A stretch of 64,000 bases of DNA from Balamuthia mandrillaris (GCA_031835245.2 JAVKOQ020000021.1:248001-312000); one strand, 5' to 3'. Counted from the first letter of the stretch, positions 13,694 through 63,243 are shown. Program-made: numbers and translations. The notes: a model not told the origin generated them from the letters alone.

Positions 13694-14725
13694 ATGGAAG
13701 AAGCCGAAAGGGTGACCGTCCCCGCCGAGGCCTTGGTGGCCTCCTCCTCCTCTTCCTCCTCTTCCTCCTCTTCCTCCTCTTCCTCCCCCTCCGGAGCTTT
13801 AGCCTGGATCACGTTGATCGTCTTCCTCTGCTCTCTCGTGCCGGTGATTTTCCCGTTTACCATCCGATTACCGAACAACAAGAGCTTCTTTCGCTTTCTG
13901 CCCTCCTTTCTCACCTCCGGGAAGAAGCTCCTCACGGTGGACTTTGCGATCGGCCCGCTGCTCGCCGTGTTGCTCCTGTTGTGCTGCACTGCGCTCTCCC
14001 CGAAGGAGATCTACGAGGCGATCAAAGGCAAGGACAATGTGGAGCCCTATTCCATTGTGATCTTGTTCTTCTCTCTCTCTTACCTCAGCATCTCCATTGA
14101 TGGTTTGTTGCCTTCGTTCTTTCTTTCTCTTCTTCTCTCATTTTCTCATTCTATGCTTCTCTGCTTCTTTTGGTTGTTCTCTTCATCGTTCTCATGATCG
14201 TTCTCTTCGCTTCGCTTCTCTTCTCTTCTCTTCTCTTCTCTTCTCTTCTCTTCTCTTCTCTTCTCTTCTCTTCTCTTCTCTTCTCTTCTCTTCTCTTCTC
14301 TTCTCTTCTCTTCTCTTCTCTTCTCTTCTCTTCTCTTCTCTTCTCTTCTCTTCTCTTCTCTTCTCTTCTCTTCTCTTCTCTTCTCTTCTCTTCTCTTCTC
14401 TTCTCTTCTCTTCTCTTCTCTTCTCTTCTCTTCTCTTCTCTTCTCTTCTCTTCTCTTCTCTTCTCTTCTCTTCTCTTCTCTTCTCTTCTCTTCATCGATG
14501 CAGTGACGGGCATTTTGGCTTTCTTTGCCATGAGGAGCAGTCAATATGCGCAGGGCTCCGGACCAAAGCTCTTCTTTGTCTTTTTCGCCCTCAGCAGCTT
14601 TCTTACTGTTGTGACGAGCAACGACATTGTCATTCTCACCCTCACGCCTTTGGTCACCTATCTTTGTGCCTTTGTTGGGATTGACCCATTCCCTATTCTT
14701 CTCAGGTAAGATGGAAAGAGAGCGC

Positions 14726-14774
<49 letters not shown>

Positions 14775-14988
14775 AAGCATAGGGACACCGACAAAACAAC
14801 AGAGAGTAGTAGGACAATAATGTTGTATTAACGTTGCTTCTTCTTCGTTACAATAGCGAGTTTTTTGCCGCCAACATATGGTCTAGCATGCTCTACATTG
14901 GCAATCCTACCAACATTATCGTAGCGCAGGCCTTTGACATTTCTTTTATTGGCTTTTCTGCTTGGCTGACTCTACCATCTATCACCGC

Positions 14989-16613: not shown

Positions 16614-16685
16614 AGCAGAGTGGCGCAGTGGAAGCGTGGTGGGCCCATAACCCACAGGTCGGAGGATCGAAACCTCCCTCTGCTA
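16614..16685 (+). tRNA. Initiator tRNA-Met (CAT)
   Basis: AGCAGAGTGGCGCAGTGGAAGCGTGGTGGGCCCATAACCCACAGGTCGGAGGATCGAAACCTCCCTCTGCTA. It has A1-U72, a GGG/CCC anticodon stem, a GATCGAAA T-loop typical of eukaryotic tRNAi, and an oligo-T Pol III terminator just downstream. Confidence 0.97.
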
Positions 16686-28984: not shown

Positions 28985-30871
28985 ATGGAAGCAGCGGCAG
29001 AGAAGAAAGAGGAAGGGGAGGAAAGCCAAGCCCTTCCCCCCCTTCTCCAACGCTTTGCGCACTCCACTGCCTGCGACCTCTCCAACAACAAGTTGAGCGC
29101 CTTGCCGAGGGAGTTTGGCCAGCTCACCTCGCTCACCCGCTGCAACCTCTCCGACAACAAGCTGAGGTCCTTGCCCAAGGAGTTTGGCCTGCTCACCGCT
29201 CTCACCTCCTGTGACCTTGACAAAAACAAGCTGACCACCTTGCCGAAGGAGCTTGCCCAGCTCCGCGCGCTTACCCACCTCGACTTCACCTACAACAAAC
29301 TTTCCTGTTTGCCGAGGGAGTTTGGTGAGCTCACCGCTCTCACCTGCTGTGACCTCTCCTGCAACAGGCTGAGCTCCTTGCCGCAGGAGTTTGGCCAGCT
29401 CTCCGCTCTCACCTCCTGCAACCTCTCCCACAACCAGCTGAGCTCCTTGCCAAGGGAATTTGGCCTGCTCTCCACTCTCACTAAGTGCTATCTCCAAGCC
29501 AACCAGCTGAGCTCCTTGCCGAGGGAGTTTGGCCAGCTCTCCGCTCTCACCTGCTGCAGTCTCTCCTGCAACTATCTGAGCTCCTTGCCGAGGGAGGTTG
29601 GCCAGCTCTCCTCTCTCACCCGCTGCGACCTGTCCTTCAACAAGCTTACGTCCTTGCCGAGGGAGCTTGGCCTGCTCACCTCTCTCACCTCCTGCTACCT
29701 TCACCACAACCAGCTGAGCTGCTTGCCGAGGGAGTTTGGCCAGCTCACTGCTCTCACTCGCTGCAACCTCTCCAAAAACCAGCTGAGCGCCATGCTGAGA
29801 GAGTTTGGTCAACTCACTGCTCTCACTGAGTGCGACCTCTCCCACAACAAGCTTTCATCCTTGCCCTCCGAGTTTGGCCAGCTCACCGCTCTCACTCGAT
29901 ACAAGCTCTCCGACAACAAGCTGAGCTGCTTGCCCAAGGAGTTTGGCCTGCTCACCGCTCTCACCCACTGCGACCTCTCCTACAACCTACTGACCGCCTT
30001 GCCGAGGGAGTTTGGCCTGCTCACCGCTCTCACTAGCTGTGACCTCTCCTGGAATAAGCTGAGGTGCTTGCCGAGGGAGTTTGGCCAGCTCACCGCTCTC
30101 ACCTCCTGCTACCTTCACCACAACCAGCTGAGCTGCTTGCCGAGGGAGTTTGGCCAGCTCTCCACCCTCAACTATTGCAGGTTGAGTGGCAACCCCTTGG
30201 CAGCACTGCCTTGTTCCATGGTTTGGCTTCTTCCCTCCTTGAAAACGTTCTTCCTTCAACCCTTTCAACGGCAAGAAGCACTTCTCCAACAAACAGAAGA
30301 ACGTGAAAAGGAAGAGCAAGAGGAGGAGAAGGAGAAGGGAAAAAAGGAAAGAGAGAAACCCAAGCAAGCACCAGCCACAAGGAACAAGCAGACAGCTGTG
30401 AAAAGCTTGTGGCACTTGAGCGGAGAGGCGGTGCTGAGGAACCAGCTTTTGCCACCTGGCTTGTTGACCGCTGTTCGAGACCCGCCGCCCTTCTCTTGGC
30501 TTTCTTCTTCTCCTCTGAAGGTGGAGAGGACCACAAATCAGCAGCAGCAAGGAACCAAAGAAGAAAGGCAAGAAGGAGAAGAAGGGAGCGAGGAGGTGGG
30601 CAGAGGGGGGGTGCTGCCGGAAGAAGTGAAGGAGAGACTGCAAAGATTGCAGAGAAGATGTGATGTTTGTGCACAGTTGTTTTTGGAGGCAGAGGCAGAG
30701 GCAGAGAAGGAGGGAGAGGAAGCAGCAGGAGGAGAAGAAGAAGGGCAAGCAAGGGAAGTGGTGAGGAGGCATTGGGACGAGGAAAGCGGGGTGTGGTGGG
30801 AGTTGTTGTGTTGCAGCCAGAGCTGCTTCCACCGGCCCCTCCCTGCTGCACGTTCCCTTGCACCCAAGTAG
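28985..30871 (+). CDS. Intronless LRR protein (17 x 23-aa repeats) with BC-box/cullin-box-like and Cys-rich C-terminus
   Basis: Repeat consensus LxxLTxCxLSxNxLxxLPREFGQ. C-terminal motifs SLWHLSGEAV, LPEEVKERL, CDVC and CCSQSC. Confidence 0.92.
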   Translation: MEAAAEKKEEGEESQALPPLLQRFAHSTACDLSNNKLSALPREFGQLTSLTRCNLSDNKLRSLPKEFGLLTALTSCDLDKNKLTTLPKELAQLRALTHLDFTYNKLSCLPREFGELTALTCCDLSCNRLSSLPQEFGQLSALTSCNLSHNQLSSLPREFGLLSTLTKCYLQANQLSSLPREFGQLSALTCCSLSCNYLSSLPREVGQLSSLTRCDLSFNKLTSLPRELGLLTSLTSCYLHHNQLSCLPREFGQLTALTRCNLSKNQLSAMLREFGQLTALTECDLSHNKLSSLPSEFGQLTALTRYKLSDNKLSCLPKEFGLLTALTHCDLSYNLLTALPREFGLLTALTSCDLSWNKLRCLPREFGQLTALTSCYLHHNQLSCLPREFGQLSTLNYCRLSGNPLAALPCSMVWLLPSLKTFFLQPFQRQEALLQQTEEREKEEQEEEKEKGKKEREKPKQAPATRNKQTAVKSLWHLSGEAVLRNQLLPPGLLTAVRDPPPFSWLSSSPLKVERTTNQQQQGTKEERQEGEEGSEEVGRGGVLPEEVKERLQRLQRRCDVCAQLFLEAEAEAEKEGEEAAGGEEEGQAREVVRRHWDEESGVWWELLCCSQSCFHRPLPAARSLAPK

Positions 30872-31526: not shown

Positions 31527-33488
31527 ATGGAGGCAGCAGCAGCAGCGAGGAAAGAGGAGGGGGAGGACCGCACAGCCCTTCCTCCCCTTCTCCAAAGCTT
31601 TGCACACTCCACCCACTGCGACCTCTCCCGCAACGAGCTGACCGCCTTGCCGAGGGAGTTTGGTCGGCTCACCTCTCTCACTCACTGCAACCTCTCCCGC
31701 AACCAGCTGAGCTGCTTGCCGAGGGAGTTTGGCCAGCTCAGCTCTCTCACCCACTGCGACCTCTCCCACAACCAGCTGAGCGCCTTGCCGAGGGAGTTTG
31801 GCCAGCTAGCCTCTCTCACCCACTGCAGCCTCTCCTGCAACCAGCTGAGCTGCTTGCCGAGGGAGTTTGGCCTTCTCACCGCTCTCACTCACTGCGACCT
31901 CCACAATAGCCAGCTGAGCTGCTTGCCGAGGGAGTTTGGCCAGCTCACCTCTCTCACCCGCTGCGACCTCTCCTACGTTAAGCTGAGGTCCTTGCCCTCC
32001 GAGTTTGGCCTGCTCATCGCTCTCACTGACTGCAACCTCTCCTTCAACAAGCTGAGCTGCTTGCCGAGGGAGTTTGGCCAGCTCAGCTCTCTCACCCACT
32101 GCGACCTCTCAAGCTATTACCTGAGCTCCTTGCCAAAGGAGTTTGGTGAGCTCACCGCTCTCACTGACTGCAAGCTCTCCTTCAACAAGCTGACCGCCTT
32201 GCCGAGGGAGTTTGGCCAGCTCTCCGCTCTCACTCGCTGCGGCCTCTCCTGCAACCAGCTGAGCTGCTTGCCGAGGGAGTTTGGCCAGCTCTCCGCTCTC
32301 ACCCGCTGCGGCCTCTCCAGGAACCAGCTGAGCTGTTTGCCGAGGGAGTTTGGCCAGCTCTCCGCTCTCACCTTCTGCGACCTCTTCCACAACCAGCTGA
32401 GCTCCTTGCCGCAGGAGTTTGGCCAGCTCCGCGCTCTCACCCACTGCGACCTCTCCCACAACAAGCTGAGCTGCTTGCCAAAGGAGTTTGGACAGCTCAC
32501 CGCTCTCACTGAGTGCGACTTCTCCTTAAACAAGCTGGGCTGCTTGCCAAGGGAGTTTGGACAGCTCACCGCCCTCACTAGCTGCGACCTCTCCGACAAC
32601 AAGCTTTCATCCTTGCCCTCCGGGTTTGGCCAGCTCACCGCTCTCACTGACTGCAACCTCTCCTTCAATAAGCTCAGCTCCTTGTCGAGGGAGTTTGGCC
32701 AGCTCTCCGCTCTCACCCGCTGCGACCTCTGCAACAACCAACTGAGCTGCTTGCCGAGGGAGTTTGGCCAGCTCACTGCTCTCACTGACTGCGACCTCTC
32801 CAACAACAAGCTGAGCTGCTTGCCGAGGGAGTTTGGCCAGCTGACCACCCTCAACAATTGCAGGTTGAGCGGTAACCCCTTGGCAGCACTGCCTTGTTCC
32901 ATGGTTTGGCTTCTTCCCTCCTTGAAAACGTTCTTGAAGGAGGAGAAGCAGAAGGGAAGGATGGAAAGATTGAAACCCAAGCAAGCACCAGCCACAAGGA
33001 ACAAGCAGGCAGCCGTGAAAAGCTTGTGGCACTTGAGTGGAGAGGCGGTGCTGAGGAACCAGCTTTTGCCACCTGGCTTGTTGCCCGCTGTTCGAGACCC
33101 GCCGCCCTTCTCTTGGCTTTCTTCTTCTCTTCTGAAGGTGGAGAGGACCACAAACCAGCAGCAGCAAGGAACCAAAGAAGAAAGGAAAGAAGAAGAAGGG
33201 AGAGGGGAGGTGGGGGTGGGGGTCCTGCCAGAAGAAGTGAAGGCGAGACTGCAAAGATTGCAAAGGAGATGTGATGTTTGTGCACAGTTGTTTTTGGAGA
33301 CAGAAGCAGAGGTGGAGGAGGAGGGGGAGGAAGAAGCAGCAGGAGAAGAAGAAGGGCAAGCAAGGGAAGCGGTGAGGAGGCATTGGGACAAGGGAAGAAG
33401 GGTGTGGTGGGAGTTGTTGTGTTGCAGCCAGAGCTGCTTCCACCGGCCCCTTCCACATTCCTATTTGCCTCTTCTAACAAATAAATGA
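31527..33488 (+). CDS. Tandem paralogous intronless LRR protein (19 x 23-aa repeats)
   Basis: Same architecture as 28985-30871, with near-identical N- and C-termini. Confidence 0.92.
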   Translation: MEAAAAARKEEGEDRTALPPLLQSFAHSTHCDLSRNELTALPREFGRLTSLTHCNLSRNQLSCLPREFGQLSSLTHCDLSHNQLSALPREFGQLASLTHCSLSCNQLSCLPREFGLLTALTHCDLHNSQLSCLPREFGQLTSLTRCDLSYVKLRSLPSEFGLLIALTDCNLSFNKLSCLPREFGQLSSLTHCDLSSYYLSSLPKEFGELTALTDCKLSFNKLTALPREFGQLSALTRCGLSCNQLSCLPREFGQLSALTRCGLSRNQLSCLPREFGQLSALTFCDLFHNQLSSLPQEFGQLRALTHCDLSHNKLSCLPKEFGQLTALTECDFSLNKLGCLPREFGQLTALTSCDLSDNKLSSLPSGFGQLTALTDCNLSFNKLSSLSREFGQLSALTRCDLCNNQLSCLPREFGQLTALTDCDLSNNKLSCLPREFGQLTTLNNCRLSGNPLAALPCSMVWLLPSLKTFLKEEKQKGRMERLKPKQAPATRNKQAAVKSLWHLSGEAVLRNQLLPPGLLPAVRDPPPFSWLSSSLLKVERTTNQQQQGTKEERKEEEGRGEVGVGVLPEEVKARLQRLQRRCDVCAQLFLETEAEVEEEGEEEAAGEEEGQAREAVRRHWDKGRRVWWELLCCSQSCFHRPLPHSYLPLLTNK

Positions 33489-54149: not shown

Positions 54150-57100
54150 CTATGTGTTACATTGTCCGGTTGAAGTGTGAGAAAGATAACCGGAGAGCCG
54201 TTGGCAAAGGTCCTTTTGATGGCGCAAGTCGATACCGAATGGGATGGTGGATGCCTTGTACACGAAAAAGTATCGGGTGGTCACCAAATGTTCGTTCTGT
54301 ACAACGTAATGAGGATTCGGTTGTCCTTCTAAACTTGGATGTTTCACAACTGTTTTTGTTTCGTTATTAATGAAAGGAGAAGAAAGAACGAAAGGAAGGT
54401 GAAGAAGAAAAATCTTACTTTCACAAAGGGCAATCGCGTGAAAGCTGCCATTGCCGAGAATGGTCTGAGGCCAGGGCACCGCCGAGCATGGACAGTAGAG
54501 ACGAGATGTGTTGATGGATGGAGAGAGATAAATGCCGGCACCAAACACAGCACCTTTCGACATCAACGCAGTGTTTGTCATGTTTTGTAATCCCACACGA
54601 AGGATTGCATGCCTTTCATTTGTTTTGGTCGCAATTGAAAATAAGAAGAATAGGATAAGTTGTTAAGTGGAAAGTAGAGGAGAACAAAAGTAAGCACTAA
54701 CCAATTCTCAAGAGCAGAGCCGTGGAAAGCCCAAACGGAGCCATATTTCTTCTTGAGAGCTTGGAACTTCGCTTCCTTCTCTGGAGTCTTACATAGCAAC
54801 ACAAATTGATGTGGCGTTTGCATCTGGTCTATAAACTGCATTTAATGCGTCAGAGAACAGAGCGAGAGAAAGAGAGAGAGAAAGAGAAGCAGAAACAGTA
54901 CCCCATTTTCTGGAATTTTTCTCAGATGAGATCGGTTCGTGCTGAGTATCCACCGTAACAAGCGATAGAGAAGCGGATGCTTCTCTTGCTCTAACTTTTG
55001 TCGGAGTCCTTGTTCTCCATTTTGTGTCGCCATATCTCTCATTTCTTCTACCGATGGCGTCAGTTGAAGCACTTTTCTCAGTGCCTCTATATCCTTTCCT
55101 CGTTTAGGGTCTTCCTCCTTGTCTTTAATAGCTGTTTCGTTCTCTTCTTTTGTGGTTGGAAGAAGAAAGTCCGTTGGGAAGGGAGCAAGGAGATAAGGCC
55201 AACGTTCGGATTGAGCAGCAGCAGAGGCGATGCTTATCATCAGATCAACGTAATGTAAATCATGGTTGAGTTGAGAGGAAATGGAGGAACTGCCCAGCCC
55301 CAATTCCGTGAGTCGGAACAGACATTCTTCGCGAGCACAGGTAACCGGTTTTAGTCCACTTTGTTGGAACAATGAAAGAGGAAGAAAGACCGAAGACAGA
55401 CAAAAGATAGAGAGAAAGAAGACACAAAGAACACGAAGCAGAACACGAAGAATGTCAGTTTTTACGGTGATACAAACAAACAGAAAAGAGAGTATAACAA
55501 ACCTGAAAGGAAGTTTTCTGTCACAAACAACACAGTGGTCCATGCAATTGCGCAATCGAAGAATGACATAACACATAAGAGTGGCTAAAAGATTGGCAGA
55601 TGCTCGTTCGTTATTTGAACAAAACTTGTTCAAGAGATGCTGCACCGAAGCGTCCTGCAGTTCGTTTTTCCTCGTTTCTTCTTTTTCTGCGTCTTGGAGC
55701 GCGGGAGTTGATGAAGGTGAATTTGTAGCAGATTCCATTCTCGCTTTGGCTTTCCACGGATTGTTCTCCTCTTTATCCAAAGCATAAGCGCTGTTGAGCT
55801 GATCGTATCCGTTATCCAAAAGAAACCGTATGCCTCTCGTTTTCTTCAACAAACTCTTTTGCTCTTTTTCTTTCTCCAAAAACGAAGACCCAAAACGATT
55901 TTCTTCTTCCTTGCCGTTGTTCTTTGCTGAAGATTCCATATTGGAGAAGAAGAAAGCAGGCCATGCTTTGTTAAGGAACCGCCGAATGATTTGTTGCAAT
56001 TGTGTCTTCATTCCAAACTCTTTCTTCAAAGATGTGGTCTGACTTACTTCAATGAGTGGAGGAGGCGGAGGCGTTGATGCCTTACTATCATCTTGTTGAG
56101 AGAAATAATAACCGATGAAAGAGAGAGTGATGGCGATGGGCTGATTTTGACAGATGCCTAAAGCATCCGCAGTTGCTGCATTCATCCAACTTACATCCAG
56201 AAACAGAACAACTTCGTTGGATTCTCTCAAATACGTTATCGAACTGTTTTAGCACAAAAAGTTAATAAAAGAAGAGAGGGAGAGGAAGAGAGAGAGAGAG
56301 AGAGAAAGAAAGAAGAGAAAAGAGAAAAGAGAAAAGAGAGAAGAGAGAAGAGAGAACTGACTTGTAACCGAATATCTGCTGAACCTGATAAACATGTTGC
56401 TCCAACAAATCATCTTCATCTCTTACTATGAACAAGGAATAAGATCCGTCGTCTTCGTCCTCCTCTTCCGCTTCCTCATCCTCATCTGCTCCTTTCGAGC
56501 GAGCCGGTGAAAAGAGAACAGACGATTTTGGAGACCAGAGTTTGCTCCGCTGAATCAAAATGCACTCTTCCTCTTCATCATCGTCCTCATCTTCTTCATC
56601 TTTTCTTTCTTCTTTATCTTTTCGTGATAATGGAGTACCTAAACTGGAAGCCCACAAGTTGGCCATCGTCATGAACATAAGGCTTCCTTTTGCTAGCCTT
56701 CGTCGCCGCTCCTCGGAAGAACTGTTCGACGTTACAAACGAAGAACTTAACATGTTGTTATTGTTGCAACGTTTGTCATAGTCTGTTTTTTAATATGTTG
56801 GGTTACAGAAAAATAACAAAGAAAACGAGAATAAGAACGTACTTATGATGAAGAAGTGAACGATGTCAAGCAAAGCAATGAAGCGTTGAGAAGCATAGCG
56901 ATTGCCATGACGCAGAAATTCCTGTCCTAAAGCTGCTGCTCTCCTCGAAGAGGAGCCAGAAGAAGAGGAAGGAACGAGAGTAACGCTTGGTCGTTCTCGT
57001 GGATAACGATCTGGCACGTGAATCGCAAAGCAAAAACGAGGCTTCGTTTGAGCTGGTTCGTTGGTGGTCGATGTCCCTAAACTTAGTAATAGGGTTCTTT

Positions 57101-58354
57101 GCTCACGGTTCCATTCCAAAGCTTCAACACAAGTGTTGGCGTTCTCGTCGTCGTCGTCCATCGCGAATATTTGTTGCAGGTTCTTGATCTCTTTTTCCAA
57201 ACGAATGTTTCTCTCTTTGTTGATTCGTTCTAACAAAGCTCTTTCTTCATCTTGTTTCTCCTCTATTTCTTTCTTTTCTTCTTCGCATGCCTTGTGTTCC
57301 CTTTTGTGCTGTTCTGTTGAGGAAGTGGTGTTGAAACGTTCTGTTTGTTTCTTCTGTTCTGCTCCTTGTTCGGGTTCAGCTTTCTGTTCGTTGCAGTGCA
57401 AGTTACTATGCGTAAGGGCGATTCCACCTCTCGTAAGATGAGTGAAGAGTTTTGCTGTTCCCGACAAAATATCATTTTCATAGCGAGTGTTGGTTTGTTC
57501 CTCCGTCATTTGTTCCTTGGATGCTCTTTCCTCCTCTTCTTCGCCTCCTTTTCGCTCGGTTGATGGTGAAACTAAGTTCTTATCTTGGTGGAGAACAGCT
57601 GTTGCTGAAGGCGTAGATTTGGTTTTGGTTGTGACGAGACTGCCTCTGATGCGTATCTGTCCGGTGACTTTGCTGCGAGAGGAGCGTTTGAGGAGGGTGT
57701 GCCATTCGTCTTTGCAGTCGTGCCCATAAAAGTAACTCATCGGTAACGAGAGTTGACCCAAGAAGTTGTTCCTATAAGTCACATATGAGAACGAAAGAGA
57801 AGAGAGCAGCATAAGAGAGAGGAGAAGCAGAGAGGCAGAGAAGTCAGGAGAAAAAGAAGAGAGCAGAGAGGTGAAATGACTTGGAGAGATGGCGGTATTG
57901 TTTGACGACTATGTGAAGATATTCGTCCATGCTTTTGGGTGAGCTGGTGAGGGACCCAAAAGAAAGAGAGAGAGAGAAAGAAAAGAATTCAGTTAGGAGC
58001 CAAAAAAAACTGGAAGCACCAAAATAACCTACAAAAAATAACGGTCCTCCCAGCGAATGCCCTTTTCTTGCTCTTCTTTGCGAACTTGCATCATGTCCCT
58101 CGTTCTGGCCTTTTGTTTTCCTCCCAGAGAAAACGAACAGTACACATAGCATGAGCCTGTAAAGCATGTATTATTTATTTTTGTTTTTGTGGGTAAAAAA
58201 AATTGGAACAAAAAGAGCAGGAAAGTGGGTGACCTGAGCTTAAGGCATGTTCTCTACGTGACCATCGTAAACAAATGTCTTTGAGTTCGATAGAACTCAC
58301 ACACAAGATGCTGGCTGGTGGTAATGCTCCACTCAACGTTCTTCTCCTCTCCAT
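54150..58354 (-). CDS. PARP6/8/16-like mono-ADP-ribosyltransferase with N-terminal C2 and RWD/UBC-like regions; multi-exon
   Basis: ART motifs AFHGSALENW|HAILRVGL, GAVFGAGIYLS, IALCE and YVVQNEHLVTTRYFFV. Cys cluster CMDHCVVCD..CAREEC. C2-like LGQLSLP..EWHTL..KVTGQIRI. RWD/UBC-like VPDRYPRERP. Confidence 0.82.
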
Positions 58355-58411
58355 TTTCTTTTTTTTTTTTTTTTTGTGTGTCAAAAAAAAAAAGATATTT
58401 GCTTGGCCGCC

Positions 58412-58496
58412 GGTTCGACTCTCGTTGGCGGATTGTTCATTTTTGAAGACATATTACCTCAAAAATTAAGTTGAGGTCGTCGGGAATCGAACCCGA
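58412..58496. promoter_or_regulatory. Convergent pair of B-box-like motifs in the divergent ART/MoeA promoter
   Basis: GGTTCGACTC at 58412-58421 (+) and GGGTTCGATTCCC at 58482-58494 (-). Confidence 0.45.
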
Positions 58497-58582
58497 GGAA
58501 AGGATTGTTGTCATTCCTGGTATTCCTTGCATGCTTGACATTTTTTCAAACGAAAGAAGAGAGAAGCAAGCTTGGTCGAGAG

Positions 58583-60169
58583 ATGGAGAGCACCCACCAG
58601 GCGCCATCCCGTGGTCCGGTTCGAAGGCAGTCGCCTTACGCCATGGTTCCTGTTGACGAAGTAAGCAAAAAGAGAGAATATTTTTTTTTTCGTGTTGAAT
58701 GAAAACACGGAAGCTAATTATCGCTCAAAATTAATATTTAAAAGGGATTGGAAGTAGTGCTCAGCCATGCTGCCACACTCCCTGCGGTCGCTGTGGGGTT
58801 GGAGGCTGCTGTGGGTTTGATACTGGCCGAGGATGTGGTTGCCCCGTCGCCATTGCCCCCTTTTCGAGCGTCCATGATGGATGGCTATGCCGTGCGGGCT
58901 GAGGTGAGCGAAATCATTTTTTGATTTTGCGTTGTTTTGTTTGGGGGTTTAAAATGACGCAACAAAGGATCTGCCAGGTGACTACCCGGTCATAGCGGAG
59001 ATGATGGCAGGCATGGCTCCGGATGCCGTTAGGGTGGAACCCAGAACGGTGGTACGGATTACCACTGGAGCACCTGTACCAACCAACGCAGATGCTGTTG
59101 TGAAGGTAAACGTGGTCTTTTTCTTCTTCTTCTTGTTCTTCTTCTTCCTCTTGTTCTTCTTCTTCCTCTTGTTCTTCTTCTTCTTCTTCTTCTTCTTCTT
59201 CTTTTTGTTCTTCTCCCTTCCCCTCCTCTTGTCCTTTCGTTGTTCTCGCTCTTTTCTGGTCTTTTTAGCTATGATGAAAGGTAAAAGGTTTGAGCGGTTC
59301 GCAACCGAACGGGACAAAAATCGGAGTTGACGAGGAGAGGACTTAACGCTAAGGGAGATCATTCCAAGCATACAACAGAAGAAGAATGGCAAGTGTGACG
59401 AGAGAGATGTAATCAATACATCAAAACACGCGCCTCGAATGTGATGTTGGAAACGGCATCACATGGTCGGGCTGTTGTTGTTGAACACTGGACAGAGCAA
59501 TGCCTGTCCCGATAAAGGCCGAGGCGTAGATAGAGACGGTGCTTTAATTTTCCATCTTGCACCCTCGTAATGGCGCATTGCAAGACTCATGAAGCACATA
59601 CACATACCCCACCTCTCCTCACGCACATGCCTTCCTTTTTTCTTTGCTGGTAGATCAAGCTTTGTGGCTCCCTCTTCGTCAATTTCGGGTTCCCGGCAAC
59701 TCGCATTGATAACCATTGGCGAAAGCCTGAGCATCTCACTTTCTTTTCACATCTGTTCTCTTTCTTCTTGCTTCTCCCTTTTTGAATTGTAACATGTTTT
59801 TGTAATGCTCAGGTAGAAGATACATTGTTGCTTCCCGAGAAGGATGCAGAAGGAAGGCAAGTCGTTCGCTTCTCTCAAACTATAACAAAAGGCAAAGCCA
59901 TCCGACCCATTGGCTGTGATCTAGAGAAAGGACAGCTCGTACTAAGGTAACCGAGTCCTCGTTTTGTATGTTGTTTTTCCGGTCTTTTTTTTCAAGGCCC
60001 GAGTTGTTTTGATTGGTTAGCGCAGGAACGTTGCTGCAAGCTGCTGAAATAGGATTGTTGGCTACAGTAGGGCTTCACCAAGTAAATGTACGACGGCCAC
60101 CTCGCGTCGCTCTGCTCTCTACGGGAGGTACTTCTATACATAAGTTGAATGAGAGCAAGAAAGAGAGCG

Positions 60170-60206
<37 letters not shown>

Positions 60207-61117
60207 GAGAGCGAGCGAAAAGGAAAGCGCACACTTACTGTTCATTTTTATAAAAGATGAGGTTGTTTCGGTTGGAGAGACACTAGGACCAGGACAGATA
60301 TACGATAGTAATAGACCAATGCTAATGGCGGCAATCGCTCAGGTATTTGTTAATAATACTCCAATATTTTTTACTTTACTTTCTTATAATATACCATATC
60401 ACATAAAGTACTCGAGTAACACTTGGGAATGCATTGACTTGGGCGTCGCTTCTGATGAGCCCTCTCTCTTGGAGCAAAAAGTTCAGGAAGGCTTAAACAA
60501 AGCAGACGTGCTTATAACCTCTGGTGGTGTCTCCATGGGCGAACTGGACTTACTGCAACCTCTATTAGAACGCCTTGGTATGTCCTTCTAGAAACAAACT
60601 CAATTTTACTTAAATAAATAAATAAATAATAATATTATTATTTATTTATTTATTTTGCTCCTAAACTGTTTTCTTTTTAACAGGCAACGTACACTTTGGC
60701 AGAGTATTGATGAAGCCAGGCAAGCCATTGACCTTTGCTACAGTGGAAGTGACAGACAACGATAGCAGCAGAACTGTTTTGGTATTTGGTCTCCCTGGAA
60801 ATCCTGTCAGCAGCATGGTGACATGGCAGCTATTCGCCTTGCCTGTGTTGCGTAAGCTCTCCGGTTGGGAAGAGCCTCGCCTTGCTCGAGTATCTGCCAA
60901 GCTGGCCATGTCCCTTCCTCTGGATCCAGAACGGCCGGAATACCATCGTGCCTCGTTGAAATGGAGTGAGGAGGAACATTGCTACGTGGCCAATAGCACG
61001 GGAGAGCAAAGGAGCAGTAGATTGCTGAGCATGAGGAGCGCCAACGCTTTGCTATGTTTGCCTCAGCGAGAAGGTGTTTTGCCTGTTGGTACTATTGTCC
61101 CAGCTCTTCTTGTATGA
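58583..61117 (+). CDS. Molybdopterin molybdenumtransferase (MoeA / gephyrin-Cnx1 E domain), apparently without a G domain; multi-exon
   Basis: Motifs RQSPYAMV, ILAEDVVAPSPLPPFRASMMDGYAVRA, RITTGAPVPTNADAVVK|VEDT, IRPIGCD, LSTG|DE, QIYDSNR, TSGGVSMGELD, KPGKPLTF, GLPGNPVS, RPEYHRA and QRSSRLLSM. Confidence 0.94.
59271..59730 (+). ncRNA. Candidate structured intronic RNA bounded by box C (ATGATGA) and box D (CTGA)
   Basis: Non-microsatellite 460-nt block inside a 707-nt intron, with at least seven mutually compatible helices found by eye. Not matched to any known family. Confidence 0.55.
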
Positions 61118-61158
61118 ACACTGTTTTTTTTTTGTTTATTACAGTCTTTATTTGCTCT

Positions 61159-63243
61159 TCAAATGTTCTTTTGTTCAGTTCGTGGAAGACATCGATCTCT
61201 TTCTACTTCTTCCTCTCTTTCATGCAGACGGTGGTGCAACGACATCTCTTCTTTTGCCGAGAAGAATATCTTCATCGGGTTCAAGATATTGTTCGGATCC
61301 AACGCCGACTTTATGGCTTTCTCCGCTTTGACGCATCCCTCTCCTAACTCATCTATTAGTTGTTGCCTCTTGCCGATGCCGATGCCGTGCTCCGCAGTGC
61401 AGGTACCATCCATCTCCTGCGCCAACTTCATTAACTTCCTGTTGTACTCTTTGGCCGTTCTGACCTCTTGCTTGTTATTCATGTCCACCAGCACGAACGT
61501 GTGGAAGTTGCCGGAGCCCACGTGCCCTATGATTGGCAAACGGTCCAATCCTAACTCACTGGCCAGGCGCCTCGCTCCTTCGATGCAGTCGGCGAGGCGG
61601 CTGATAGGCACAGCCACATCGGTGGCGAAGGCCTCGGCCTCAGGACGAAGGGCAGGCACGGCGTACCAGGCATCGTAACGAGCCTTCCATAGGTTCTCAA
61701 TGTCTTCGCTGTCCTCTGCTTGATGTACATGAACGGCGTTGAACTGGTGGCGAGCTATCTCTTCCACTTGCTTGGCTTGGCGGTAGATGTAGTCGCGATC
61801 GGAGCTGTGCAGCTCCACGAAGAGGGTTGGCTTCTCGTCATAGCTTTGGCCTTGGCTCGTGTTCACCGCTTTGAGACACCACTCATCCAACAGCTCGCAG
61901 CGCATCACACTTCCTACAATTCCAGTGGACTTACATGTAAGTACTCTTTTTTTTTCTTTGTTCTTTAGTTCTAGCAACAAGAATAACGACGTACGAATGT
62001 CATCATAGATGAGCTTAGACACCGTCTTGGCTGCCTGCTCCACGGAGTGAAACACGCATCGCATGGCCAAAATATGTTTCGGCACTCTCTCCAAACGAAG
62101 GGTCAGCTCCGTAATAACACCGAGGGTGCCCTCCGACCCTACGAACAGTGCTGCCATGTTATAGCCGGCCCGGCTCTTTCTGGCCCTTTTGCCCGTGGTA
62201 ATCACCTCGCCCGAGGCCAACACCACCGTCAGGCTCAGCACCATGTCCTTCATCATGCCGTAGCGCATGGCGGTAGGTCCGCTGGCCCCGGTGGCGGCCA
62301 TCCCTCCCAACGTGGCGTCCGCGCCGGGGTCGCAGCAGAAGAACAGCCCCTCCGGTTTGATGTGCTGGTTGAGCTGGCCGCGGGTGACGCCGGCCTGCAC
62401 CGTCACGTCCATGTCCTCCGGGTGGAAGGCCAGGACCTTGTTCATGCGGCGCATGTCGAAGGAGAGGCCGCCCATCGGGGCCGAGATGTGGCCCTCCAGC
62501 GAGGACCCCTTGCCAAAAGGGATGACCGGCACGCCCAGGCGGTTGCACAGCTGCAAGATGCGGCTGATCTCCTCGGTGGATTCGGGGAAGACCACCACGT
62601 CGGGAGGGGTGCAAGGGTGCCAGGTCAGGTCGCTGCCGTGACGGCGCAGCACGCTCTCCTCGGTGCTGACGCGTTGGGGAGGGAGGAGCTTGTGCAGCTC
62701 CTTTTGCAGGCTGTCCAGCTTGGCGAGGTGGCCAGAGTCGCGGTGGGGCATGTCCTCCGCAGCGCTCAGCTTCATCACCCGTTCCTCCAGCTTGCGTTCA
62801 GGGGCTGGGTCGATGGCGATGCCTGTTATCACGTCTTCTCGTTCCATGTGGTCCGCGTGTTGTTTGACGAAGTCTGCTTCTTGCTGAGTTCCCAAGGTTT
62901 TTTTGTTTGCTAAATTGTATATTGGTTTCACGTGCGGTGAACTTGACAGATTTTCTCCGATACTATGCCTGTTTTCAGTCGATTTGCGGTCAATTCCATA
63001 CCACCTTTCCTGTCGTTTTTCGTTCTGTTTGGCCCTTTTTTGGTTTCGTTCAGGAAAAGGACGTGAAATTTCACGGATATGGGCAACTCCCGAACGGATT
63101 ATTTCCATATTTTCTCCGTGCTTCACCCAAAACGCGATTTCTATTGGCGGCGCACATGTCTTTAGTTTGCCTGGTTTGGCTTCGTTCGGTTTTGTTTTGC
63201 TTTTTATGCGAGTTTTATGATTTATTTTTTTCTGTTGTTCCAC
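61159..63243 (-). CDS. FAD-linked D-lactate dehydrogenase (LDHD/DLD1-like) with an N-terminal extension
   Basis: Motifs PDVVVFP, PFGKGSSLEGH, DPGADATLGGMAATGASG, GSEGTLGVIT, TDVAVPIS, GHVGSGNFH, GTCTAEHGIGIGK and LDPNNILNP. Probable in-frame intron ~61925-61992. Start uncertain. Confidence 0.9.
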   Translation of the reverse strand: MEQQKKINHKTRIKSKTKPNEAKPGKLKTCAPPIEIAFWVKHGENMEIIRSGVAHIREISRPFPERNQKRAKQNEKRQERWYGIDRKSTENRHSIGENLSSSPHVKPIYNLANKKTLGTQQEADFVKQHADHMEREDVITGIAIDPAPERKLEERVMKLSAAEDMPHRDSGHLAKLDSLQKELHKLLPPQRVSTEESVLRRHGSDLTWHPCTPPDVVVFPESTEEISRILQLCNRLGVPVIPFGKGSSLEGHISAPMGGLSFDMRRMNKVLAFHPEDMDVTVQAGVTRGQLNQHIKPEGLFFCCDPGADATLGGMAATGASGPTAMRYGMMKDMVLSLTVVLASGEVITTGKRARKSRAGYNMAALFVGSEGTLGVITELTLRLERVPKHILAMRCVFHSVEQAAKTVSKLIYDDIRTSLFLLLELKNKEKKRVLTCKSTGIVGSVMRCELLDEWCLKAVNTSQGQSYDEKPTLFVELHSSDRDYIYRQAKQVEEIARHQFNAVHVHQAEDSEDIENLWKARYDAWYAVPALRPEAEAFATDVAVPISRLADCIEGARRLASELGLDRLPIIGHVGSGNFHTFVLVDMNNKQEVRTAKEYNRKLMKLAQEMDGTCTAEHGIGIGKRQQLIDELGEGCVKAEKAIKSALDPNNILNPMKIFFSAKEEMSLHHRLHEREEEVERDRCLPRTEQKNI

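What the first reader, a model, noticed from the sequence alone, without database searches (positions are those of the whole stretch)
59271..59730. Large structured RNA with C/D boxes hidden in an intron of the Moco-insertase (MoeA) gene
Seen in the sequence: intron 59106-59812 (707 nt) is far longer than typical introns here and its core is complex sequence, not microsatellite. Nested helices are 59322-59337/59672-59687 (16 bp, 3 G-U), 59388-59404/59613-59631 (interrupted), 59406-59411/59417-59422, 59431-59437/59520-59526, 59439-59449/59454-59464 (11 bp, GAAA tetraloop), 59490-59495/59504-59509, 59539-59545/59591-59597 and 59555-59561/59579-59585. Together they form a long rod ending in a multibranch domain. 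Alternative pairings also exist (59332-59340/59612-59620; 59310-59316/59505-59511). ATGATGA (59271) and CTGA (59727) bracket the block. Established knowledge: C/D motifs define intronic sno/scaRNAs, Moco-associated RNA motifs regulate bacterial Moco genes, and eukaryotic TPP riboswitches act from introns. Inference: this is an unusually long C/D-class RNA or a cis-regulatory switch, possibly Moco/molybdate-responsive. I could not match it to U3, SRP, RNase P/MRP, TPP or the bacterial Moco motif by eye.
Basis: partly seen in the sequence, partly recalled or inferred. Interest (0 to 1): 0.85.

Follow-up and report, generated by a model that had tools for sequence, protein, structure and literature searches.

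The report
Abundant rod-shaped RNA from amoeba intron
The middle of an unusually long intron in a molybdenum-cofactor gene of a Balamuthia-like amoeba piles up in RNA-seq as a folded RNA of about 400 bases that matches no known RNA family; it is likely trimmed out of the spliced intron, and its job is unknown.

Summary
Intron 59106-59812 splits a MoeA gene (Pfam MoeA_N 70-104 | 106-143; spliced in an RNA contig).

New here:
- Three RNA-seq runs cover 59292-59704 at 290-527x, against 0-7x on exons and outer intron.
- RNA contigs from two other studies hold only the core, at 59273-59651 and 59376-59697.
- DNA contigs show about one copy per haplotype, so it is not a high-copy MITE.
- A second allele in the same intron differs by 24 substitutions and 4 indels yet folds as well; 0 of 250 random placements do.
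- Transition mismatches between the rod arms are G.U on the + strand 6:0.

No Rfam family matches at E<=10.

Verdict: a real, stable, sense-strand, intron-derived structured RNA of an undescribed family. The C/D reading is weak: no terminal stem, and CUGA lies past the coverage drop. The riboswitch reading has no support. No homologue outside this species was found, the strand and ends are inferred, and the function is unknown.

The parts
58970..59105 (+). MoeA exon upstream of the intron
   Evidence: Pfam MoeA_N profile 70-104, E 4.4e-07. RNA contig piece 58966-59103 (table 8).
59106..59812 (+). Host intron, 707 nt, GT..AG
   Evidence: Sequence. The X11 RNA contig joins 59103 to 59811 (table 8). 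Pfam profile positions are contiguous across it.
59109..59238 (+). TTC-rich microsatellite filling the 5' part of the intron; not part of the stable RNA as far as can be seen
   Evidence: Direct-repeat families D1-D6. Read laying skipped it as a repeat, so its RNA level is unknown.
59271..59277 (+). Box-C-like AUGAUGA, 2 nt before the first base of the X11 RNA contig
   Evidence: The only RUGAUGA in 59230-59770 on either strand. The X11 contig starts at 59273.
59290..59705 (+). Stable RNA core; ends are approximate (5' end at or before 59273-59292, 3' end about 59697-59705)
   Evidence: RNA-seq depth is 26-527x summed over both read directions across 59292-59704, against 1-3x in the neighbouring bins. 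RNA contigs cover 59273-59651 (X11) and 59376-59697 (X15). Fold z -5.67 on + and -2.18 on -.
59310..59404 (+). 5' arm of the long terminal rod
   Evidence: MFE pairs. Arm-against-arm alignment gives 73 Watson-Crick, 6 G.U, 0 A.C.
59405..59612 (+). Apical multibranch domain: hairpins 59406-59422, 59430-59527 (branched) and 59539-59597
   Evidence: MFE. Highest RNA depth. 6 substitutions and no indel in 59431-59602 between the alleles.
59439..59464 (+). 11-bp hairpin with a GAAA tetraloop and two U.G pairs
   Evidence: Sequence and MFE. Snap-back 'opposite strands' read joints are centred on its loop: 59428/59476, 59430/59474, 59438/59466 (table 5).
59613..59696 (+). 3' arm of the rod; holds a T6 run at 59636-59641
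   Evidence: MFE. T-run. The X15 RNA contig reads through it to 59697.
59727..59730 (+). CUGA (box-D-like), probably outside the stable RNA
   Evidence: Depth in bin 59705-59763 is only 1-3x.
59813..59947 (+). MoeA exon downstream of the intron
   Evidence: Pfam MoeA_N profile 106-143, E 0.0023, below the gathering score on its own. RNA contig piece 59811-59944.

Best explanation
The core of this intron (about 59273/59290 to about 59700) accumulates as a stable, highly folded non-coding RNA of some 410-430 nt, which is likely made from the sense strand by splicing of the MoeA pre-mRNA and exonuclease trimming down to the foot of its long terminal helix, and would then persist as a free structured RNA or RNP of a family not yet described.

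Shown directly: the RNA accumulates, it is low-copy, it folds, the fold is kept in a second allele, and it has no intact reading frame across alleles.

Inferred: the sense strand (from G.U asymmetry and folding energies), release by splicing and trimming (from the position and the exon-level depth of the outer intron), and protection by structure or bound protein. What it does in trans is unknown. My best guess is a protein scaffold, since structure rather than sequence seems to be what is kept.
For: 1. Accumulation. Three RNA-seq runs (478, 750 and 432 reads laid out of 12.9 million records sampled each) give 290-527x at 59469-59527, summed over both read directions. MoeA exon bins give 0-7x and the outer intron bins 59233-59291 and 59705-59763 give 1-3x.

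2. Independent studies. X11 has a separate 373-nt contig covering 59273-59651 beside the spliced mRNA contig. A root metatranscriptome (X15) has a 317-nt contig covering 59376-59697 and nothing else of the stretch laid, 58970-59950.

3. Low copy.
- There is no second copy in the 64-kb window.
- DNA contigs of X3 show a two-allele bubble (depths 48.8 and 40.6) with flanks at 52-54.
- X12 carries a copy about 93% identical in the same intron, next to an identical exon.

4. Fold. z -4.76 over 460 nt and -5.67 over the 416-nt core on the + strand.

5. Fold kept between alleles.
- The second allele, rebuilt from the differences, folds at -152.6 against -149.0 for the window.
- The same 24 substitutions and 4 indels placed at random give -128.9 +/- 7.1, and 0 of 250 reach the natural value.
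- Substitutions alone: 1 of 300. Indels alone: 13 of 300.

6. Strand.
- + strand z -4.8 to -5.7 against -2.0 to -2.2 on the - strand.
- In an energy-blind alignment of the rod arms, all 6 transition mismatches are G.U on + and none is A.C (p 0.031).
- The GAAA hairpin adds two more U.G pairs.

7. Not coding. The only long ORF (91 aa, - strand) is cut to 47 aa at most in the second allele.

8. Not Pol III on the + strand. A T6 run at 59636-59641 lies inside RNA contig X15.

9. No back-joined (circular) reads are listed (table 5).
Against: - The libraries are unstranded (first mate on + roughly equals first mate on -), so the strand is inferred, not seen.
- The ends are not mapped. Coverage tapers, and the second allele's reads are clipped by the 95% likeness rule, so a shorter or longer mature form is possible.
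- No homologue beyond this species complex was found. The metagenome scan gave 7 chance loci and the viral scan gave none.
- Between alleles, the 14 variant sites that fall in MFE pairs split 7 pair-keeping to 7 pair-breaking, with no double compensatory change.
- Sequence divergence of the apical domain (3.5%) is not significantly below the rest of the intron (Fisher p 0.30 for substitutions, 0.13 with indels).
- Against genomic background the fold is only -2.0 sd.
- A very stable hairpin could accumulate as a by-product with no function.
Confidence: 0.55

Rival explanations
1. A cis-acting 'zipper'. The rod pairs sequences downstream of the 5' splice site with sequences upstream of the branch point. 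That would loop out about 410 nt, so a 707-nt intron behaves like a short one in an organism whose introns average about 113 nt. The abundant RNA would be a by-product of a nuclease-resistant hairpin.
For: - The rod closes at about 59294/59703, leaving about 190 nt plus about 110 nt outside it.
- The fold is kept between alleles, while sequence is not clearly kept.
- Introns here are short: 64-129 nt for the other four, and an average of 113 nt in passages of preprint 10.1101/2025.02.25.640156.
- The principle is known in yeast RPS17B (PMC2536676; search listing and abstract only).
Against: - A zipper needs only the basal stem. Here a 200-nt multibranch apical domain is also retained and is the least changed part.
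- Simple deletion would serve the same end.
- By-product introns are normally degraded; 50-100 fold excess over exons in three runs plus two other studies suggests active protection.
Confidence: 0.2
2. An unusually long box C/D RNP. AUGAUGA (59271) and CUGA (59727) would form a kink-turn that recruits Snu13/Nop56/Nop58/fibrillarin and defines both ends, with the rod as a giant insert (a sno-capped long RNA).
For: - There is a single perfect RUGAUGA, about 0.07 expected by my arithmetic. It lies 2 nt before the start of RNA contig X11.
- The 5' stretch 59239-59299 is unchanged in the second allele. The 3' stretch 59701-59732 is also unchanged, but 59700, 59733 and 59737-59738 differ.
- Depth in the two terminal bins is low on both sides alike, so ends at about 59267 and 59735 are not excluded.
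Against: - There is no terminal stem: U.G, then C/C and G/A.
- CUGA is expected about twice by chance and its C is paired in a predicted mini-hairpin.
- Depth in 59705-59763 is 1-3x.
- RNA contig X15 ends at 59697.
- There are no internal C'/D' boxes.
- No Rfam C/D model comes near its threshold.
- At about 465 nt it would exceed the C/D RNAs I recall.
Confidence: 0.1
3. A hairpin precursor of small RNAs (a miRNA-like or hpRNA locus), in which the long imperfect rod would be diced and the long reads are precursor or loop remnants.
For: The rod has arms of about 90 nt and lies in an intron. Depth is highest over the apical domain and lower over the arms.
Against: - The arms are heavily interrupted: 30 gap columns and 10 transversion mismatches against 73 Watson-Crick pairs.
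- The lower arm depth is largely explained by clipping of the divergent second allele (loose ends at 59602 and allele fractions).
- No small-RNA library was available.
Confidence: 0.07
4. An independently transcribed gene inside the intron, antisense or driven by Pol III, rather than a splicing product.
For: - The libraries are unstranded.
- On the - strand a T5 run (59320-59316) lies where one run shows fragment ends piling up at 59315 (6 molecules, table 6).
- A B-box-like GGTTCGCAACC sits at 59296-59306 on the + strand (the consensus is recalled).
Against: - G.U asymmetry is 6:0 for the + strand, and the - strand fold is far weaker.
- RNA contig X11 runs on to 59273, past the T5 run.
- A T6 run lies inside the RNA on + and a T4 run in its middle on -.
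- The B-box-like motif carries two changes (59300 and 59306, C>T) in the second allele, which is also expressed.
Confidence: 0.05
5. A metabolite-sensing switch (Moco, molybdate or TPP-like) regulating splicing of the MoeA gene.
For: Only the host gene's role in molybdenum-cofactor synthesis.
Against: - No riboswitch family matches at E<=10 on either strand.
- The RNA accumulates as a free species far above its host, which is not how the intronic riboswitches I know of behave.
- Its size and rod shape are unlike those aptamers.
Confidence: 0.01

Closest known systems
Stable intronic sequence RNAs (sisRNAs) of Xenopus, Drosophila and Epstein-Barr virus (PMC7137253, PMC4621838, PMC3751371; search listing and abstracts only)
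   Same: Both are a defined part of an intron that outlives splicing and accumulates well above the host pre-mRNA. From my recollection, not checked here, one EBV sisRNA contains a very long conserved hairpin.
   Different: sisRNA is an operational label, not a family. No sequence or structure homology was shown. The organism here is an amoebozoan. It was not tested whether this RNA is linear, a lariat or polyadenylated.
Intron-encoded box C/D snoRNAs and sno-capped long RNAs
   Same: It is released from an intron and, by inference, trimmed by exonucleases to a protected core. One perfect box C motif lies near the 5' limit.
   Different: There is no terminal stem, box D is doubtful, there are no C'/D' boxes, and no Rfam match. 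At about 410-465 nt it is far larger than typical C/D RNAs.
Intron 'zipper' stems of yeast, e.g. RPS17B (PMC2536676; abstract only)
   Same: Long-range pairing inside a long intron brings the 5' splice site and the branch point closer together.
   Different: From recollection, the yeast stems are short pairings and are not reported to give abundant free RNAs. Here the looped-out part is itself a complex, stable RNA.
Rod-plus-branches RNAs such as SRP RNA, RNase P/MRP RNA and 7SK
   Same: The overall shape is a long terminal helix joining both ends, with an apical multibranch domain carrying GNRA/GNAR-type loops. There is also a GAUC/GAUC pairing in the rod (59357-59360 with 59654-59657).
   Different: None of these Rfam families matches at E<=10. 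The recalled CR-I/CR-V motifs and Sm site are absent. An internal T6 run argues against Pol III.

Membership tests
Box C/D snoRNA / scaRNA | Box C (RUGAUGA) near the 5' end | tested here: met
   One AUGAUGA at 59271-59277, the only one on either strand in 59230-59770. RNA contig X11 starts at 59273.
Box C/D snoRNA / scaRNA | Box D (CUGA) near the 3' end of the mature RNA | tested here: inconclusive
   CUGA at 59727-59730. However, depth in 59705-59763 is 1-3x, contig X15 ends at 59697, and about 2 CUGA are expected by chance (my arithmetic).
Box C/D snoRNA / scaRNA | Terminal stem of 4 bp or more flanking boxes C and D (kink-turn stem I) | tested here: not met
   59267-59270 AGCU against 59731-59734 GCAU gives U.G and then mismatches. 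The only 3-4 bp register uses the A of CUGA itself.
Box C/D snoRNA / scaRNA | Similarity to a curated C/D model | tested here: not met
   The best matches are sR12 at 16.6 bits (gathering 38) and SNOR75 at 15.4 bits (gathering 50).
Box C/D snoRNA / scaRNA | Guide complementarity to rRNA or snRNA upstream of D/D', and binding by fibrillarin/Snu13 | not testable with these tools
   No rRNA of this organism and no whole genome is held.
Moco or TPP riboswitch | Match to the aptamer covariance model | tested here: not met
   No riboswitch family at E<=10 in 59240-59760 on either strand.
Stable intronic sequence RNA (operational class) | Lies wholly within an intron and accumulates above the host's exons and the rest of the intron | tested here: met
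   290-527x against 0-7x on exons and 1-3x on the outer intron in three runs. Core-only RNA contigs come from two other studies.
Stable intronic sequence RNA (operational class) | Same strand as the host gene | tested here: inconclusive
   The libraries are unstranded. Indirect support for the + strand: z -5.67 against -2.18 and G.U asymmetry 6:0.
MITE / foldback transposon | Many dispersed copies | tested here: not met
   No second copy in the 64-kb window. DNA contig depths fit one copy per haplotype: 48.8 + 40.6 against flanks of 52-54. The whole genome was not available.
MITE / foldback transposon | Near-perfect terminal inverted repeats with a target-site duplication | tested here: inconclusive
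   Arms: 73 matches, 16 mismatches and 30 gap columns. The only flank repeat seen by eye is TTGA (59290 and 59707), which is too short to count.
SRP RNA, RNase P/MRP RNA, U3, 7SK, telomerase RNA | Match to the family model or its hallmark motifs | tested here: not met
   None of these Rfam families matches at E<=10. The recalled CR-I/CR-V patterns and Sm site are absent. No 7-mer of the CCCTAA template is present, given TTAGGG telomeres in passages of 10.1101/2025.02.25.640156.
miRNA-like / hairpin small-RNA locus | 20-25-nt RNAs mapping to the arms | not testable with these tools
   No small-RNA library was among the runs laid.

The most novel reading that the evidence does not exclude
This is the founding member of an undescribed class of abundant, intron-processed, rod-shaped RNP RNAs in Amoebozoa. 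It would be either a kink-turn-capped long RNA, a protist counterpart of sno-capped lncRNAs, or a structure-protected scaffold with a trans-acting role of its own, kept in both diverged haplotypes of the genome.
Probability: 0.2. Interest if true: 0.75.

Novelty: new variant of a known kind. Interest (0 to 1): 0.55.

Why it matters
Non-coding RNAs of free-living and pathogenic amoebae are known almost only through Rfam-based annotation, and this RNA escapes that. Here a tool-free reading of raw sequence led to an RNA that public RNA-seq shows to be real and 50-100 times more abundant than its host message.

If it proves to be a functional RNP, it adds a lineage-specific RNA class. It would also give a clean case for studying how a large structure is carved out of an intron. 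If it is mainly a splicing aid, it extends the yeast 'zipper' principle to Amoebozoa. Either way it should be annotated, so that its reads are not taken for MoeA expression or intron retention.

Tried and rejected
- Rfam at E<=1 on 57000-62000, at E<=10 on 59240-59760, and at gathering score on the whole window. Nothing in the intron except sub-threshold C/D and miRNA noise; the whole-window scan found only a tRNA.
- Whole-genome search. No genome is held for this window.
- Earlier-findings look-ups by place, by sequence and by words: empty.
- Metagenome scan with a degenerate 25-nt pattern from 59511-59535. It returned 7 loci, all sharing only the pattern itself with the core (best BLAST 27-28 bits).
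- Viral-contig scan with a 36-nt pattern over the GAAA hairpin: 0 hits.
- Run X14 ('organism B') held only an exon piece, 58970-59104, so it gave no relative for covariation.
- Covariation among alleles. 26 variant sites: 14 fall in MFE pairs (7 keep the pair, 7 break it) and 12 are unpaired. No double change was seen, so the comparison is too shallow to be informative.
- Protein-coding reading: rejected.
- Recalled motif patterns for RNase P/MRP, the Sm site and the telomerase template: none found.
- Literature. No paper holding 'Balamuthia' with 'snoRNA' bears on this (1 hit, unrelated), and 10 hits for 'Balamuthia mandrillaris' with 'non-coding RNA' include none on this RNA. A broader five-term search surfaced no Balamuthia paper among the 12 listed.
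- The supplements of the bioRxiv genome preprint are closed. Its ncRNA annotation files, which might list this locus, could not be seen.

Full report
**Where we are.** The window is eukaryotic. A neighbouring ORF (61159-63243, - strand) is 95% identical to an NCBI protein named 2-hydroxy-acid oxidase [Balamuthia mandrillaris]; the next hits are about 50%. So the DNA is from Balamuthia, an amoebozoan, or a very close relative. [quoted passage not shown]

**The gene and the intron.** Open frames on the + strand match Pfam families in this order:
- MoeA_N, profile 7-60: window 58742-58921
- MoeA_N, profile 70-104: 58953-59105
- MoeA_N, profile 106-143: 59813-59947
- MoCF_biosynth and MoeA_C: further downstream

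The intron 59106-59812 starts GT, ends AG, and splits the profile between positions 104 and 106. An RNA contig of run X11 joins 59103 to 59811 (table 8). The four other introns seen in reads skip 84, 64, 74 and 129 nt (table 5). This 707-nt intron is therefore exceptional. Its first 130 nt are a TTC-rich microsatellite.

**The observation.**
- a long interrupted rod, about 59310-59404 paired with 59613-59696
- the small hairpin 59406-59422
- a branched domain at 59430-59527, containing the 11-bp GAAA hairpin 59439-59464 and the 59490-59509 hairpin
- the hairpin 59539-59597

On the + strand the MFE is -157.1, z -4.76, and 0 of 100 dinucleotide shuffles fold as well. On the - strand z is -2.03, with 3 of 100. 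For the 416-nt core 59290-59705 the values are -5.67 and -2.18 (60 shuffles).

A harder control used real sequence. I folded 416-nt windows every 160 nt across starts 1-61121 on both strands and regressed MFE on GC. The core is 33.9 kcal below expectation (-2.0 sd) and among the best 6 of 768 values. A repeat-rich region near 14721 is far ahead. The fold is real and unusual, but on its own it would not prove function.

**The new fact: it is an abundant RNA.**
- Three RNA-seq runs of the same species label (raw reads, about 3-5% of each run sampled) put 478, 750 and 432 reads on 58584-60330, mostly on the intron core.
- Depth, summed over both read directions, rises from 26-52x (59292-59350) to 290-527x (59469-59527) and falls to 17-31x (59646-59704).
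- MoeA exon bins stand at 0-7x. The outer intron bins 59233-59291 and 59705-59763 stand at 1-3x.
- Run X11, from another study, holds a 373-nt contig covering 59273-59651, separate from the spliced mRNA contig.
- A root metatranscriptome, X15, holds a 317-nt contig covering 59376-59697 and nothing else of the stretch.
- Snap-back read joints are centred on the GAAA loop: 59428/59476, 59430/59474 and 59438/59466. They show that this hairpin forms in the library molecules.
- No back-joined reads are listed, so there is no sign of a circle.

The libraries are unstranded. The taper of depth towards both ends is partly a mapping effect: reads of a second allele are clipped at clusters of differences (loose ends at 59602; allele fractions falling towards the 5' side).

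**Copy number and alleles.**
- The core has no second copy in the window.
- DNA contigs of X3 split into two alleles over 59270-59437 (depths 48.8 and 40.6), with flanks at 52-54 and shared core contigs at 65-76.
- One further X3 contig leaves the window sequence after 59737.
- X12 carries a copy about 93% identical (32 substitutions, 15 gap letters over 59239-59949) in the same intron, next to an identical exon.

This fits one copy per diverged haplotype. It does not fit a MITE or SINE. Both allele types are present in the RNA: for example 59483 G>C is seen in about 70% of reads.

**Is the structure kept?** At the level of single pairs the alleles are uninformative. Of 26 variant sites, 14 fall in MFE pairs (7 keep the pair through G.U, 7 break it), 12 are unpaired, and there are no double changes. 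Sequence divergence is 3.5% in the apical domain, against 8.5% and 5.8% in the arms and 4.7% in the 3' intron flank. That difference is not significant (Fisher p 0.30; 0.13 with indels).

The second allele as a whole, however, folds as well as the first.

| Comparison | Natural second allele (MFE) | Same changes placed at random | Random sets as good |
|---|---|---|---|
| 24 substitutions + 4 indels | -152.6 (window allele -149.0) | -128.9 +/- 7.1 | 0 of 250 |
| Substitutions only | -152.4 | -134.1 +/- 7.0 | 1 of 300 |
| Indels only | -149.6 | -141.2 +/- 5.3 | 13 of 300 |

The caveat is that the test starts from an already extreme sequence. What it shows is that both lineages stayed extreme.

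**Which strand?** There are three indirect lines for the + strand:
- the z-scores above
- an energy-blind alignment of the 5' arm against the reverse complement of the 3' arm, which gives 73 Watson-Crick columns, 10 transversion mismatches, 30 gap columns and 6 transition mismatches. All 6 are G.U on the + strand and none is A.C (binomial p 0.031)
- the two U.G pairs of the GAAA hairpin

A T6 run inside the RNA (59636-59641, read through by contig X15) argues against Pol III on the + strand. The - strand has T4 and T5 runs inside the covered region. The sense strand, and hence the origin from the host pre-mRNA, is thus likely but not seen directly.

**What it is not.**
- No Rfam family matches at E<=10. 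That covers SRP, RNase P/MRP, U3, snRNAs, 7SK, known ribozymes and the Moco and TPP riboswitches.
- Recalled hallmark patterns (P/MRP CR-I and CR-V, Sm site, any 7-mer of a CCCTAA template) are absent on both strands.
- It is not coding. The only long ORF (91 aa, - strand) is broken in the second allele.
- The C/D reading rests on one perfect AUGAUGA at 59271, which lies near the 5' limit of the RNA. But the flanks of the two boxes cannot pair. CUGA at 59727 is expected by chance, lies beyond the fall in depth and beyond the end of contig X15, and is half buried in a predicted GGC-GAAA-GCC hairpin. There are no C'/D' boxes. I keep this reading as a 10% rival because depth is equally low in the first and last 25-30 nt, so ends at about 59267 and 59735 are not excluded.

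**How it most likely works.**
- Shown: the RNA accumulates, it is low-copy, it folds, and the fold is maintained.
- Inferred: it is transcribed as part of the MoeA pre-mRNA and freed by splicing and debranching. It is then trimmed from both sides until the nucleases meet the long terminal helix, and whatever binds it. This would leave a species of about 410-430 nt that outlives the message 50-100 fold.

Its role is open. Structure appears to be kept more than sequence, which suggests a protein scaffold or decoy. The same pairing would also shorten the effective intron, as yeast 'zipper' stems do (PMC2536676, abstract only). I rate that as the main rival (20%), and the two readings are not exclusive.

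**Comparison and novelty.** Operationally it is a stable intronic sequence RNA (PMC7137253, PMC4621838, PMC3751371; listing and abstracts only), and it meets that class's two testable criteria. It belongs to no described family. My searches found no paper on such an RNA in Balamuthia. I could not fetch any homologue from another species and no whole genome was held. A claim of a conserved new family therefore remains untested. I rate it a new variant of a known kind.

Noticed in passing
window 14146-14817 (windows starting 14401 and 14721): This is the strongest folding region of the whole window on both strands (-163.0 kcal on the - strand, -3.6 sd; -150.3 on the + strand). It overlaps a tandem array of period about 15 nt around 14216-14385, seen as serial BLAST hits.
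   Followed up: no
window 59737 onward, in DNA run X3: One X3 contig follows the window up to 59737 and then continues with unrelated, TTC-rich sequence. This is either a third version of the intron's 3' part or a second locus whose likeness ends just past the CUGA.
   Followed up: partly
window 59296-59306: GGTTCGCAACC on the + strand resembles a tRNA-type B box (consensus recalled). Two of its bases (59300 and 59306, C>T) differ in the second allele, which is also expressed, so it is probably chance.
   Followed up: partly
window 59357-59360 and 59654-59657: Two GAUC tetramers face each other in the rod, reminiscent of the GAUC/GAUC pairing in the 7SK 5' hairpin (recalled). No 7SK model matches.
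   Followed up: partly
window 59459-59734 (- strand): A 91-aa ATG ORF runs antisense through the RNA core. It is cut to 47 aa at most in the second allele, so it is probably not a gene.
   Followed up: yes
window 16614-16685: A tRNA-Met (CAT) gene, the only Rfam hit of the window at gathering score.
   Followed up: no
window 61159-63243 (- strand): FAD-linked 2-hydroxy-acid oxidase / D-lactate dehydrogenase ORF. Apart from the Balamuthia protein (95%), the named proteins among the 120 best listed are all bacterial, at 46-51% identity.
   Followed up: no
window 28985-30871 and 31527-33488 (+ strand): Two neighbouring long ORFs made of leucine-rich repeats (LRR_8, E 1e-40).
   Followed up: no
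window 60126-60254: The 129-nt MoeA intron is filled with a GA/GAGC microsatellite. Like the TTC tract of the large intron, it fits the heavy load of low-complexity DNA in this genome.
   Followed up: no
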